Source: Chrysomallon squamiferum (lineage: Eukaryota; Animalia; Mollusca). From it: 64,000 nucleotides of DNA. The notes beneath the pieces are model-generated. The model worked only from the letters and a program-made list of their open reading frames with translations. It ran no database searches and was not told where the DNA came from. The position numbers and the translations under genes were made by a program. Positions 2,802 through 21,820 of the stretch are shown piece after piece. The stretch lies in assembly GCA_012295275.1 (NCBI GenBank), contig CM022667.1, positions 5,208,001 through 5,272,000 of the forward strand, written 5' to 3'. Positions within the stretch are counted from its first letter, which is position 1. Each line of letters opens with the position of its first letter.

Positions 2802-2822
2802 CAGCAGTCAAGTTGTTCTGAC
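2802..2822 (-). CDS. 21-nt linker microexon (GQNNLTA)
   Basis: Pyrimidine tract + AG, GTAAGA donor, phase 1-1, same position in each repeat. Confidence 0.65.
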
Positions 2823-3023
2823 CTTTAGAGGAGAAAAAGAAATCAAGGAAATTATATTAGTCATTTGCAATAAATTATGTAAAGATGCAGCAAGGAAATG
2901 GAACCAAATATTTATTACAATATATTGATTATATCATTATATAAGAGGGATTGATATTCTTAATAAAATAATAATAATAATAATAATAATAATAATAATA
3001 ATAATAATAATAATAATACTGGC

Positions 3024-3347
3024 CTCGAGTGCTTTTAATACACGGAGTATGACTGACATCAGTGGAATATCCATCAGAACACATCCATTGGCCTTCGTCA
3101 ACTTCCTTGTGAAACTTCTCTATACCGATAGTAATTTGTGTCGGTGAATCTACCCGAGCGCAGTATCCTGGCCGATGTCCGTTGGTTATACACATTGTTG
3201 TCTGGTAATTGCAAAATATAACTGTTTGTTTATTTGGCCTAAATACTCTTATTCCATTTGTTACAGTGCCATTCATGGTACATGTTAATTTTGTAGGAAA
3301 TCCTTCTTCGGCTTCATCCAAGCAGTCAATATATGTTCTTGCTCGTC
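3024..3347 (-). CDS. Ig-like exon type B, copy 1 (RARTYIDCLDEAEEG...DEGQWMC...PCIKSTR)
   Basis: ttgctttccag acceptor, 324 nt, phase 1-1, 7 Cys; donor AG|GCCAGT (variant of AG|GCAAGT in other copies). Confidence 0.8.
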
Positions 3348-3705
3348 CTGGAAAGCAAGTTATTGAATACTACAGTTATTAAAGATAGGAAACTACTATA
3401 ATAAAACTTTTACTAAATCGTTAAAAATTAATTATGATACAACAAGTGGAATGGAAACGATTTAATTCTATCTATCAATCAATGCATGTATGTATGTGTG
3501 TATGTATATATGTGTGTGTGTAAGTGTATTAACAAAAATTAAGGAAACTAAAATTAAAAGAATAATCGTATATCGTAGATAATTAAACGAGATTATACAG
3601 ACACAAAATACGAAAGCAAAATAAATAATTCTTTAAGGAAATATACAGAGTATTTTGAGATAATCGACAACTACTGTTCTGTCTGCTACAACTATTTGTA
3701 CTTAC

Positions 3706-3726
3706 CTTCAGAAGGATTATAGCTTC
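3706..3726 (-). CDS. 21-nt linker microexon (GSYNPSE)
   Basis: ctctgtag acceptor after pyrimidine tract, AAG|GTAAGT donor, phase 1-1. Confidence 0.75.
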
Positions 3727-4318
3727 CTACAGAGCGAGAGAAAAGAAAGAAAAACAACACGGTTTTGTTAGTAGTGAGAAAACAAACATTATAAATTAAT
3801 TTACAATTTAAGGGAGAAACGAAATCATTTCGTTGAAAATTGAGAAGAAAAGACAGTGTAATAAGGTGATAAGTATACATATCAACATCTGATGTTTACA
3901 ATCATTTCATGATGTGTTTGGTCAACAATATCTGAACTTCTTGTTTAGACAGCTATTCAGCTTTCTTTTATACATAAATTCAATGCAAATATTTAAAGGT
4001 GGTAAATATTAGTGCACAGCCACCCACACGCTTGGGAGACAATTCGGACCAATAATTCAGACGAACTCGACGCATGAACCGGAGTCACAACAGAAAAACA
4101 CTGGGAATTTGAATGATCTACAAAAGTCTCATTCCACAAAAATGGGCGAGATAACTGCACGTCGTGATGTCTATAGATGAGTCGTTACTTGTTTATGCGT
4201 GTGCGTCTGTGCGTTTCTATATGTAAGAGCTAGAGAAATAATAATAATAATAATAATAATAATAATAATAATAATAATAATAATAATAATAATAAAAATC
4301 TAGTTCAAAATTTCTTAC

Positions 4319-4333
4319 CTGTAGGTAACGTAG
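4319..4333 (-). CDS. 15-nt linker microexon (xTLPT)
   Basis: ttatag acceptor, CAG|GTAAGA donor, phase 1-1. Confidence 0.65.
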
Positions 4334-5023
4334 CTATAATATAAAAACGGAAAATAAGGTTCTTTATTACGTCACTTGCATCGAATTTACTAATTATCTA
4401 CCAGACAATTAAAGTTAAATAATAATAATAATAATAATAATAATAATAATAATAATAATAATAATAATAATAATAATAATAATAATAATAATAATAATAA
4501 TAATAAATAATAATAATAAGAAGAAGAATTCTAAAAATCTACAAATATAAATAGTAATAAGATAAATTAAAAATTAAAGAAACTAAAACGAAAGTAAATG
4601 AAGAGTATATTATAAGCAGCTGTTTAGATAATAAATACATATTAAAATTAAATTATTTATGAAGAATTTAGGATAGTAAAGACTGAAAGTGCAGAATTTT
4701 CGATTTTAATATAATCGGAGATAGTGTCTTCACATATTCAAAATACAATAATTAGTCAATTTCCGTGAAATGCATTTTATTTTTCTATAAATTCATAGGT
4801 ATTTAAATATCCTTAGATTACAGTGGATTCTACATAAGATAAAATAAACAATTTCACAGTTAATCTATATAGAGCAGAATAGAAATAGCTGTGTCGGAAG
4901 GTTTCTAATGAACTTTTGTTGTAACATTTGAAAATAGCAGCCCTACACAAATATGATGATTTCATCAATAATTTTGTTTTTTAATATTTTAGAAGTGAAC
5001 ATTAAAGTTTTAATTTTACTTAC

Positions 5024-18642: not shown

Positions 18643-18963
18643 GTTGACTACTTTTGTCACAGGTAGTTTCACCAACCCCAGGAGGTGTTCCGTCAGTGCA
18701 GGTCCACTCTCCTTCATCGACATTTTTTCTGAAGTTTTGTATCATAATAGTTATTTCTGAGGCTGAATCTACTATAACACAATATTCTACTCTTTTGAGA
18801 ACACAAGTACAAACTGTGTTACGATTACAATCTATAACTAACTGACCATCTGGTCTACGAACTTGTATTCCGTACTTTACAGTGCCGTATATACGACATA
18901 TCAGTTGTGATTCCCGTGCATTATTTGGACCATTTAAACAGTCTAAATACGTCTTTGCTTTTT
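18643..18963 (-). CDS. Ig-like exon type A, copy 5 (extra Cys: NTVCTCVL; missed by ORF track)
   Basis: 321 nt open exon, ctacag acceptor, GTAAGT donor. Confidence 0.85.
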
Positions 18964-20801
18964 CTGTAGAAAAAAGAAGAAAAAAGAAGAAAAAAGAAGA
19001 AAAAAGAATAATTAAAAAAAAGAATGTGTTTATATATACATATAGATAAATATATAGATAGATATATGAATAGATAGATAGACGGGTGGATAATAAATAA
19101 CCTAGATCATGAGAGAGAGAGAGAGAGAGAGAGAGAGAGAGAGAGAGAGAGAGAGAGAGAGAGAGAGAGAGAGAGAGAGAGAGAGAGAGAGAGAGAGAGA
19201 GAGAGAGAGAGAGAGAGAAACAAATCGGTTTATGACCCTATCTATTTTCTATTTAACAGAACGTTTTACCAGTTCACCAATAATTGGGTACATTTCTCGT
19301 TACATAGCCTCACATACCGAAAGAAGCAAAAAACGAGAACAAGTACAGGCAAAACAACACCAACAGCAGAGACAACAACAACAACAACCGGAAAAACAAG
19401 AATAATGATAGAAGTAATAACAACAACAACAACAACAACAATAATAATAATAATAATAATAATAATAATAATATAAACAGCTTTAATAAAAAAAATATTA
19501 AAGTGTTTGAAACATAGGATAATAATTTTATTCATAAGCGAATTATTCACATATATCAAATATTGTTTGAAAGGAGTATCATATGTGTTTCTGTGTGTGT
19601 GTGTGTGTGTGTCTGTGTGTGTGTGTGTGTGTGTGTGTGTCTGTTTGTGCGTGTGCTAAGAATTACAAATAGGCGTCGAAAATACATCATAACATCTTAA
19701 ATCAGGAGTTATAATGTGATCTTTCAGAACTATATTGTTTACAGCTTACAAGGAACCTCCGTCCGAAAAAACATAAATCAAAATCAACCTTCATAACTCA
19801 TATCAATTCCTTTAAACCTTTGAGGTGTGCAAGACTAAACACAGACAAAGACTAAAATCTGAATAAATATAAATAAACATAGATAACTAAAAAAGGTTTG
19901 TCATTGAAGTAACATAGATACCAATGTTTTAGTAAATTTTTCTTTTTGTACCGATATTGTCTAAGTTTTCTTTGTTACATTATCTCCTGTATCCTTCGAA
20001 CGTACGGAAAAAACATTTTGCTTTAAAGTGCCAGATATCCAATATGTTTACAAATTACCTCGCTTCGCGAATTTCATTTCTTGTCAGACGTATCCAATAA
20101 AAAATACATACCTATTATTCTACAAAAAATAAATAAAATAAAATAAAATAAAAATAAAATAAAAAAATTATAATAATCAATAATAAAAAAAAAAAATAAG
20201 GAAATAAATTAATAAATTAAATAAAATTATAGAAATACAATAAAATAATATGAAAGTAGGTAATGACTTATATTAGTAAAATATTTGTATCAGTAAGTTT
20301 TGCTGAATTATGCATGACGTGCATCATTATTACTAGTAAACATTATCATGAAGGTGAAGAACTCCAAACAGATATCCATGGACAGTAGTTTGTAATTTGA
20401 GACCACACTTATTTGTAACTAGTATTACATAATAGGATTATAAGAGAAAAAACAATTAAAAGAATCAAATGTTTTCTAAAACCAACGTATCTTTCGACTT
20501 GCACTGTAGGAACTCAAACGAATCTCTGGGTTGAAATATGCAAAATGAAGTAGAAGAGGAGTGTGGATGGTGTATATCTGTATTTCTTAACTGAAAATTC
20601 TGCTGAAAATACTATTTCTGCCGTGACTATAGATACTATTTTACTACTACTACTACTACTACTACTGCTGCTGCTGCTGCTGCTACTACTACTACTACTA
20701 CTGCTGCTGCTACTACTACTACTACAACTATTAATTGTGATCAAATATTTTTGTTTGCTATTCAACTGAAAAGAATACACTGTCAATTAGAAACGTCTTA
20801 A

Positions 20802-20822
20802 AAGCAGTCAAGGTTTTGAGAC
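20802..20822 (-). pseudogene. Inactivated 21-nt linker microexon
   Basis: Same donor loss (T|TTAAG) as at 16293. Confidence 0.65.
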
Positions 20823-21038
20823 CTTTAGAAGAGAAAAAGAAAGGAAGAAGATTATATTAGTCATTTGTAATAAATTATGTAAAGGGATAGCAAGGAAATG
20901 GAACCAAACGTTTATTAAAATATATTGATTATATCTTTATATAAGACTAATTGCTATGCTTTATAATAATAATAATAATAATAATAATAATAATAATAAT
21001 AATAATAATAATAATAATAAAATAATAATAATACTTGC

Positions 21039-21362
21039 CTTGAGTTCTTTTTATACATGGAGTATCAGTGACATTAGTAGGATATCCATCAGAACACACC
21101 CATTGGCCTTCATCAACTTCCTTGTGGAACTTCTCTATACCGATAGTAATTTGTGTCGGTGAATCTATCCGAGCGCAGTATCCTGGCTTATTGCCCATGG
21201 TCATACACATTGTTGTAAGGTAATTGCAAGATATAACTTCTTGTTTTTTTGGCCTTAACACTCTTATTCCAGTTGTTACAGTGCCTTTCATGTTACATGT
21301 TAATTTTGTAGGAAATCCTTCTTCGGCTTCATCCAAGCAGTCAGTATATGTTCTTGCTCTTC
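21039..21362 (-). CDS. Ig-like exon type B, copy 5
   Basis: 324 nt open exon, AG|GCAAGT donor. Confidence 0.85.
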
Positions 21363-21799
21363 CTGGAAAGAAAGTTAATGAATATTACAGATATTAAAGA
21401 TAGGAAACTACTATAATAAAACATTTACTAAATCGTTAAAAATTGATTATGATTCAACAAGTGGAATGGAAAGGATTTATTTCTATCTATCAATCTATGT
21501 ATGTATGTATGCACGTATATATGTATGTATGTGTGTATGTATGTATGTATATACGTATATATTTATGTGTGTATGTATGTATGTATGTATGTACATATGC
21601 GTGTCTATGTGTATTAACAGAAATTAAGGAAACGAAAATTAATACTATTAAAAGAAATGTCGTATATGGTAGATAATTAAAGGATTTTATAAAGACACAA
21701 AATATGAAAGCAATATAAATAATTCTTTAAAGAAATATACAGAGTATTTTTAGAAAATTAACAACTACTGTTCTCTCTGCTACAACTATTTGTACTTAC

Positions 21800-21820
21800 G
21801 TTGAGGAGGATTATATTTTC
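21800..21820 (-). CDS. 21-nt linker microexon (GKYNPPQ)
   Basis: AG/GTAAGT, phase 1-1. Confidence 0.7.

What the first reader, a model, noticed from the sequence alone, without database searches (positions are those of the whole stretch)
2802..21820. Inter-domain linkers encoded by dedicated, variable 15- and 21-nt microexons
Seen: each unit has A-[15 nt]-[21 nt]-B-[21 nt]-A. Lengths and splice sites are fixed while the peptides differ (GSYNPSE, ARDNPPQ, GRYIPSQ, GRYIPYQ, GKYNPPQ; GQNNLTA, GLRNLAA, GQKNLPA; TLPT, IIAT, ILPA). An N-L-T glycosylation sequon is present in some post-B linkers and absent in others. Inference: hinge length and glycosylation between Ig domains are separately switchable modules.
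Basis: partly seen in the sequence, partly recalled or inferred. Interest (0 to 1): 0.7.

Follow-up and report, generated by a model that had tools for sequence, protein, structure and literature searches.

The report
Tiny exons spacing repeated Ig domains

Summary
The microexons are real. On the minus strand a tandem array (about 4.5-kb units) of phase-1 Ig-like exons A and B carries a 15-nt and a 21-nt exon between A and B. RNA contigs from two samples of one study show them spliced in (7 rows). No listed row shows skipping, but contigs drop rare forms and only 24 of 153 loose ends were shown. Two of the five post-B 21-nt exons have lost their donor (GT to TT). The first unit has lost its A exon end and its 15-nt exon. 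ILPA and GQKNLPA belong to a second, probably broken gene outside the coordinates. Microexon amino-acid change is about three times denser than in the domains, with no excess over synonymous change. Ten of 12 sequons lie in the domains. New point: in the neighbouring paralogue the 'post-B' exon follows a predicted leader exon, and intron likeness ends at a (TTA)n run. It is therefore likely a leader mini-exon recruited as a linker by microsatellite-bounded duplication. Splicing of the post-B exon itself could not be seen directly.

The parts
24781..25104 (-). D1, first Ig-like domain exon of the finding's gene (324 nt, phase 1-1)
   Evidence: (V-set E 0.0078, below cut-off)
23490..23516 (-). 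27-nt microexon after D1
   Evidence: sequence only
22268..22553 (-). broken A exon (microsatellite expansion, stop, 3' end and donor deleted; the deletion also removed this unit's 15-nt exon)
21800..21820 (-). pre-B 21-nt exon, unit 1 (KYNPPQ)
   Evidence: sequence only
21039..21362 (-). B1 domain exon, GC donor
20802..20822 (-). post-B 21-nt segment with dead donor (TT)
18643..18963 (-). A2 domain exon (321 nt)
17941..17955 (-). 15-nt exon (IIAT)
   Evidence: X2 loose end at 7839 reads this type joined to the 17291 exon
17291..17311 (-). pre-B 21-nt exon (RYIPYQ)
   Evidence: spliced to B and to a 15-nt exon in X2 (loose end at 7839)
16554..16877 (-). B2 domain exon, GC donor
16293..16313 (-). 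post-B 21-nt segment with dead donor (TT)
14021..14341 (-). A3 domain exon
13358..13372 (-). 15-nt exon (IIAT)
12702..12722 (-). pre-B 21-nt exon (RYIPSQ)
   Evidence: sequence only
11996..12322 (-). B3 domain exon (327 nt), GC donor
11790..11810 (-). post-B (really pre-A) 21-nt exon (LRNLAA), live donor
   Evidence: joints not visible
9582..9902 (-). A4 domain exon
8896..8910 (-). 15-nt exon (IIAT)
   Evidence: X1 contig has it between an A end and the 8239 exon (table 5c, depth 18.8)
8239..8259 (-). pre-B 21-nt exon (RDNPPQ)
   Evidence: RNA joint 7836-8238, ends CT..AC, X1 42.1 and X2 5.72
7511..7837 (-). B4 domain exon (327 nt), GC donor
7246..7266 (-). post-B 21-nt exon (QNNLTA, carries N-L-T)
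   Evidence: X1 depth 19.3 inside against 3.3 eight bases upstream, indirect
5024..5344 (-). A5 domain exon
4319..4333 (-). 15-nt exon (TLPT)
   Evidence: X1 loose end at 3728
3706..3726 (-). pre-B 21-nt exon (SYNPSE)
   Evidence: RNA joint 3346-3705, ends CT..AC, X1 24.6
3024..3347 (-). B5 domain exon; GC donor weakened at +3
   Evidence: folded
2802..2822 (-). post-B 21-nt exon (QNNLTA, carries N-L-T)
   Evidence: sequence only
596..916 (-). A6 domain exon; the gene runs on past the window start
   Evidence: X2 loose end at 597 shows a 15-nt exon after an A end
42869..42950 (-). second gene: predicted leader exon (ATG at 42917, hydrophobic core, phase-1 donor)
   Evidence: not tested on RNA, no signal-peptide predictor run
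42460..42480 (-). second gene: 21-nt exon of the 'post-B' type directly after the predicted leader exon
34262..41181 (-). second gene: two A-15-21-B units; 22-nt decayed pre-B copy at 39305-39326; in-frame stop in the last B
28730..33859 (-). second gene: stalk microexons (15, 15, 27, 27, 45 nt), transmembrane exon 29494-29560, tail exon 28730-28865

Best explanation
The 15- and 21-nt exons are spliced between the Ig-like domain exons of a tandemly duplicated gene, likely a mollusc cell-surface receptor, and likely serve as constitutive spacers whose sequence drifts and whose presence changes by mutation of splice sites, not by regulated skipping. Shown: a roughly 4.5-kb unit [(TTA)n - 21-nt - A - 15-nt - 21-nt - B] was copied in tandem, every exon is phase 1-1, and RNA includes the 15-nt and pre-B exons. 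Inferred: unequal crossing-over joined the B donor to the (TTA)n run of the intron that follows the leader exon. The 21-nt exon that in the paralogue likely encodes the end of the signal peptide (L-x-A) thereby became a B-to-A linker. It is dispensable: 2 of 5 copies lost the donor, which would shorten that joint from 20 to 13 residues. The A-to-B joint (25 residues, Pro/Ser/Thr-rich) is likely a flexible, surface-exposed spacer under weak sequence constraint. The protein is likely a type I membrane receptor, by analogy with the neighbouring paralogue, which ends in a stalk, a transmembrane exon and a short tail.
For: RNA: 2 splice joints with CT..AC ends found only in RNA runs, 1 'letters between' row and 4 loose ends that read as microexons; no skipping row among 6 joints, 4 rows of table 5c and the 24 loose ends shown. 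Open frame of 1270 codons through 24 exons. Dead donors. Nonsynonymous share 0.80 against 0.77 expected from sites, p 0.8. Leader-to-21-nt intron of gene 2 is 79-86% alike to 6 of 6 B-to-21-nt introns over about 170-230 nt, and the likeness ends at the (TTA)n run; the last B of gene 2 shares only 12 intron bases with the others. Unit relationships differ from segment to segment: units 3-5 are 2.3-2.4% apart in one intron and 9-13% in others, as expected from crossing-over or conversion. V-type Ig fold; Mollusca clusters nearest.
Against: Contigs drop rare isoforms, both RNA runs are one study, and 129 of 153 loose ends were hidden, so low-level or tissue-specific skipping is not excluded. One X1 contig joins the TLPT exon to an A end that is not its neighbour in this assembly (matches A3 at 14021 or the gene 2 A at 35959), which may be long-range skipping rather than another haplotype. 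The pre-B exon is more divergent (0.219) than 96% of intron windows, with 8 nonsynonymous changes to 1 synonymous, which drift alone fits only marginally. Splicing of the post-B exon, the GC donors and the leader exon were not seen directly. The leader core holds a Glu. The gene's own 3' end and leader are not in hand.
Confidence: 0.62

Rival explanations
1. Regulated splice code: live microexons are alternatively included, tuning hinge length and adding or removing an N-glycan, like meB of PTP-delta.
For: All exons are symmetric, so any can be skipped in frame. The 15-nt acceptors score low (5.8-8.1) and B exons use GC donors. One RNA contig joins non-neighbouring parts. Direct B-to-A joints are predicted to be tolerated in 2 units.
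Against: No skipping row; 7 rows show inclusion. The 21-nt exons have the strongest acceptors of the set (16-21, on a matrix trained partly on them). Ten of 12 sequons lie in domains.
Confidence: 0.2
2. Diversifying selection on exposed linkers (escape from proteases or from pathogen binding), with constitutive splicing.
For: Nonsynonymous changes per site: 17 of 37 in microexons against 92 of 499 in domains, Fisher p 0.0004, not corrected for phylogeny. Pairwise pN/pS 2.9-3.4 for the 15-nt and pre-B exons.
Against: Synonymous sites are also fast (4.5 of 11). The N share does not exceed expectation in any of the three exon types (p 0.66-1.0). The 15-nt and post-B exons fall within the intron range (28% and 11% of windows as high). 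pN/pS is 0.82 for live post-B copies. Counts are very small.
Confidence: 0.13
3. The short segments are intron remnants or an assembly artefact.
For: Two post-B copies and one 22-nt copy are indeed non-functional as written.
Against: RNA-only splice joints at the predicted bases. Units differ by 1-23% by segment, and run X3 has depth in 29 of 30 bins.
Confidence: 0.02

Closest known systems
Mini-exon meB of type IIa receptor tyrosine phosphatases (PTP-delta, PTP-sigma, LAR); PMC4423211, passages read
   Same: A tiny exon (there 4 residues) at the junction of two Ig domains that sets their spacing ('adjustable linker').
   Different: meB is a single alternatively spliced insert with a measured effect on ligand binding. 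Here three microexon types recur at every joint of a tandem array, only inclusion was seen, and the variation is between genomic copies. The paralogue's tail has no phosphatase.
21-bp second leader exon of Fc receptors and FCRL; PMC7940838 and PMC2413239, passages read
   Same: A 21-bp exon between a leader exon and the first Ig exon, as predicted for gene 2.
   Different: No homology is claimed or tested. Here copies of that exon were carried into the ectodomain as inter-domain linkers.
Schistosoma micro-exon genes (MEGs); PMC4015677, passages read
   Same: Symmetric microexons in secreted or membrane proteins.
   Different: In MEGs microexons make up to 75% of the coding sequence and skipping was sequenced. 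Here they are about 7% (255 of about 3810 nt, from the exon list) and skipping was not seen.
Unnamed molluscan V-type Ig protein clusters (ESM Atlas; P0001, 42% identity); molluscan Ig receptors such as FREPs and CgSiglec-1 (PMC5877582, passages read)
   Same: V-type Ig-like domain; tandem Ig domains in a likely surface or immune protein.
   Different: No fibrinogen or lectin exon was seen in the paralogue whose 3' end lies in the window. No described gene structure for this family was found in my searches.

Membership tests
Immunoglobulin superfamily, V-type | Ig beta-sandwich fold | tested here: met
   Model pLDDT 77.9. Foldseek top rows are V-type Ig (prob 1.0, best E 2.6e-3, TM about 0.6; none at E <= 0.001). 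VIA best Z 8.4, rmsd 3.2, 92 aligned, listed rows mostly V-type Ig; Z is middling.
Immunoglobulin superfamily, V-type | B- and F-strand cysteines with D-x-G-x-[YW]-x-C (motif recalled) | tested here: met
   C22 and D83-E-G-x-W-x-C89 invariant in 14 of 14 domains.
Immunoglobulin superfamily, V-type | C-strand tryptophan and Pfam V-set score above cut-off | tested here: not met
   No Trp at that place in the alignment. Pfam: D1 16.8 bits against cut-off 26; no Ig family hit for the 3 A/B domains tested. A divergent, IgSF-like domain.
LAR-RPTP meB-type splice linker | microexon at an Ig-Ig junction | tested here: met
LAR-RPTP meB-type splice linker | alternative inclusion | tested here: inconclusive
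   Only inclusion seen; contigs drop rare forms; post-B joints hidden by the tool's repeat filter.
LAR-RPTP meB-type splice linker | insert changes ligand affinity | not testable with these tools
   No ligand known.
LAR-RPTP family | FN3 repeats and cytoplasmic phosphatase domains | tested here: inconclusive
   Gene 2 ends in a transmembrane exon and a tail of about 45 residues, so not met there; the finding's own gene runs off the window.
FCR/FCRL split leader | 21-bp second exon completing the signal peptide | tested here: inconclusive
   Position, length and phase fit in gene 2; no RNA or signal-peptide prediction.
FCR/FCRL split leader | homology to FCR/FCRL Ig domains | not tested
   No direct comparison made.
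Schistosoma-type micro-exon gene | microexons form most of the coding sequence | tested here: not met
   About 7% (exon list).
Schistosoma-type micro-exon gene | symmetric exons | tested here: met
   All phase 1-1, lengths 3n.
FREP / Ig-plus-lectin proteins | C-terminal fibrinogen or lectin domain | tested here: inconclusive
   None seen between the last B and the transmembrane exon of gene 2; the finding's gene end is outside the window.

The most novel reading that the evidence does not exclude
An undescribed molluscan receptor family grows its Ig arrays by microsatellite-bounded duplication that captures a signal-peptide mini-exon as an inter-domain linker. Each joint's length and glycan can then be switched on its own, by single donor mutations between copies and haplotypes and also by exon or whole-unit skipping, giving a polymorphic ruler of receptor reach.
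Probability: 0.22. Interest if true: 0.68.

Novelty: new variant of a known kind. Interest (0 to 1): 0.42.

Why it matters
It shows, with RNA support, that inter-domain linkers of a tandem Ig array can be built from their own 5-7-codon exons, which gene finders usually miss (recalled), so such proteins are likely mis-annotated. It also offers a traceable case of an exon changing jobs, from predicted leader half to linker, at a visible (TTA)n breakpoint, with copies caught losing their donor. If skipping were later shown, it would be an invertebrate counterpart of the PTP-delta meB splice code, repeated at every joint.

Tried and rejected
No whole genome was held, so the 3' end of the gene and further paralogues could not be read. 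The deep profile search could not be run. Homologue searches: 0 hits among 11 longer candidates for B, 1 hit among 374 near-length candidates, 0 among 7985 longer candidates; so no full-length relative was available to compare linkers, and these blanks are weak evidence. Second read-laying aimed at B-to-21-to-A: no joint for inclusion or for skipping; the B end and A start abut simple repeats where the tool drops rows (6 joints and 11 loose ends dropped in X2). The best-covered contigs there differ from A4 at 18-19 places and match none of the window's 7 A exons (at most 3 of 10 listed letters), so they come from other paralogues. Two hints from them were not counted: an 823-nt contig leaves about 39 nt between A and B (arithmetic), and one contig runs 2 bases past the A start in a way that fits an upstream exon ending in AG. 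X4 gave nothing on the exons. An in-frame GT alternative to the B GC donor was sought: the nearest lies 18 nt inside the exon with a poor consensus, and the one at +4 shifts the frame. No convincing leader exon was found for the finding's gene between 25110 and 28700. A first fuzzy search timed out. Literature: no paper held all terms, and none held 4 of 5; one search gave 4 unrelated papers and one review (listings seen). Supplements were not read. Earlier-finding look-ups by place, words and sequence were empty.
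Full report
Setting. The window is AT-rich (25-36% GC by 2-kb bin), full of simple repeats, and carries three related genes on the minus strand. No whole genome is held. The nearest ESM Atlas clusters for two domains are unnamed eukaryote clusters whose commonest phylum is Mollusca, so the source is likely a mollusc. The finding's gene reads D1 - 27 nt - (broken A) - 21 - B1 and then repeats A - 15 - 21 - B at a period of 4444-4544 nt until it leaves the window at A6. A profile of the domains finds 15 whole Ig-like exons and one broken one in the window.

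Domains. Fourteen aligned domains share six cysteines and a D-E-G-x-W-x-C motif. The AlphaFold model of B5 (pLDDT 77.9) matches V-type Ig domains by Foldseek (best E 2.6e-3, none at or under 0.001) and by VIA-align (best Z 8.4). Pfam gives only a sub-threshold V-set hit for D1 and no Ig hit for 3 other domains. They are divergent Ig-like domains.

Observation. Within 2802-21820 there are four 15-nt, five pre-B 21-nt and five post-B 21-nt segments. A plain splice-site scan gives 12 of 12 minus-strand hits of length 15 or 21 against 1 plus-strand hit. Three corrections follow. Two post-B copies (20802, 16293) have TT in place of the donor GT. The first unit's A exon is broken, and a deletion from 22268 removed its donor and its 15-nt exon. 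ILPA and GQKNLPA are in the second gene, which also has a 22-nt frameshifting pre-B copy and a stop in its last B. All 7 B exons end in a GC donor, one weakened at +3; this rests on frame and consensus, not on RNA. Joining the 24 live exons by coordinates gives 1270 codons with no stop.

RNA. Four runs were found: X1, X2 and X4 are RNA of one study; X3 is unlabelled and covers introns like DNA. On 500-8750, 2 of 6 joints occur only in RNA and fall exactly on the pre-B exon to B splice (3346-3705 in X1; 7836-8238 in X1 and X2; ends CT..AC). The other 4 are X3-only and not at exon edges. One of 4 'letters between' rows is the IIAT exon between an A end and the 8239 exon. Four of the 24 loose ends shown (of 153) read as microexons: TLPT plus an A end, IIAT after an A end twice, and RYIPYQ plus IIAT before a B start. 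No row shows A-B, A-21 or 15-B skipping. Contigs drop rare forms, so this shows inclusion as the main form, not the absence of skipping. One oddity: the TLPT exon is joined to an A end that matches A3 or a gene 2 A, not its neighbour A5. Another haplotype, a unit beyond the window, or skipping of two units would each explain it. The post-B exon was not seen in a joint, where rows next to repeats are dropped. The only hint is X1 depth 19.3 inside 7246-7266 against 3.3 just upstream.

Variability. Pairwise differences among the finding's units are 0.133 (15 nt), 0.219 (pre-B) and 0.171 (post-B), against 0.049 (A), 0.087 (B) and 0.076-0.114 for repeat-masked introns. Equal-sized intron windows reach these values in 28%, 3.8% and 11% of cases (windows overlap, three tests). 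With gene 2 copies added and the dead post-B and 22-nt copies left out, amino-acid-changing substitutions are denser than in domains (17 of 37 sites against 92 of 499, p 0.0004). Their share (0.80) equals the share expected from sites (0.77, p 0.8). So the linkers are fast-evolving; weak constraint suffices, and selection is not excluded. Of 12 N-glycosylation sequons, 2 lie in microexons and 10 in domains, where they also come and go. Cys-to-Cys spacing is 25 residues for A-B, 20 for B-A with the exon and 13 without.

Origin. In gene 2 an exon of the post-B type (42460-42480) has no B upstream. It follows an exon with an ATG, a hydrophobic stretch and a phase-1 donor (42869-42950). The 170-230 nt upstream of it are 79-86% alike to all 6 B-to-21-nt introns, and the likeness stops at the (TTA)n run that directly follows each B donor. 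The last B of gene 2, which is followed by stalk exons instead, shares only 12 intron bases with them. The duplicated unit therefore begins at the microsatellite, and the 'post-B' exon is a pre-A exon. All 7 copies end in L-x-A, which fits a signal-peptide cleavage region (recalled rule; no predictor run). I infer that a leader mini-exon was carried into the ectodomain by unequal crossing-over. Segment-wise distances are mosaic, as expected from repeated crossing-over or conversion.

Family context. Gene 2 ends in 15-, 15-, 27-, 27- and 45-nt exons, a transmembrane exon and a tail with an F-x-N-P-x-F motif (the endocytic meaning is recalled). Gene 1 has 14 exons of 18 nt, similar 15/27/27-nt exons and a 78%-alike tail region. 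Microexons thus encode all the non-domain parts of this family, which makes microexon linkers its default architecture rather than a special device.

Comparison. It works like meB of PTP-delta in position (PMC4423211, passages), but alternative inclusion is not shown. The predicted origin parallels the 21-bp second leader exon of FCR/FCRL genes (PMC7940838, PMC2413239, passages), with no homology claimed. It is not a Schistosoma-type micro-exon gene (PMC4015677, passages): microexons are about 7% of the coding sequence. I found no paper on this family or arrangement; the library lacks most subscription journals and supplements were not read. Two unchecked notes on octopus Ig genes with microexon arrays suggest such arrays recur in molluscs; they are leads only.

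Verdict. Real, expressed and partly as described; most likely fixed spacers that vary between copies, with one exon type recruited from the leader and lost in some units. New variant of a known kind, interest 0.42.

Noticed in passing
window 52920-63750, minus strand: Fourteen 18-nt phase-1 microexons (Asp/Ser/Gly-rich, for example DSEME, ASDVD, DSDLD) in their own tandem repeat, then 15-, 27-, 27-nt exons and a tail exon at 47761-47896: an acidic stalk of a third family member.
   Followed up: partly
window 28730-42950, minus strand: Second gene with predicted leader, two A-B units, stalk, transmembrane exon and tail. A 22-nt exon and an in-frame stop in the last B suggest a pseudogene, unless both exons are skipped in frame.
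   Followed up: partly
window 3024, 7511, 11996, 16554, 21039, 34262, 38577: All seven B exons end in a GC donor followed within a few bases by a TTA run; the 3024 copy has a further change at +3.
   Followed up: partly
window 28730-28865 and 47761-47896: Both tail exons carry Y-E-T-F and F-[DE]-N-P-A-F motifs, resembling sorting and endocytosis signals (recalled).
   Followed up: no
window 45180-46150, minus strand: Broken reading frames that look like a transposase remnant (recalled likeness to MULE elements; no family search run), between gene 1 and gene 2.
   Followed up: no
window 3728 (run X1): An RNA contig joins the TLPT exon to an A end that is not its genomic neighbour: other haplotype, further unit or multi-unit skipping.
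   Followed up: partly
window 9762-9904 and 12005-12137 (runs X1, X2): Expressed A- and B-like contigs 13% divergent from the stretch; the A-like ones match none of the window's A exons, so the family has further expressed members elsewhere.
   Followed up: partly
window 917-2801, 5345-7245, 9903-11789: These three introns differ by only 2.3-2.4% while neighbouring segments of the same units differ by 9-13%: recent conversion or crossing-over.
   Followed up: partly
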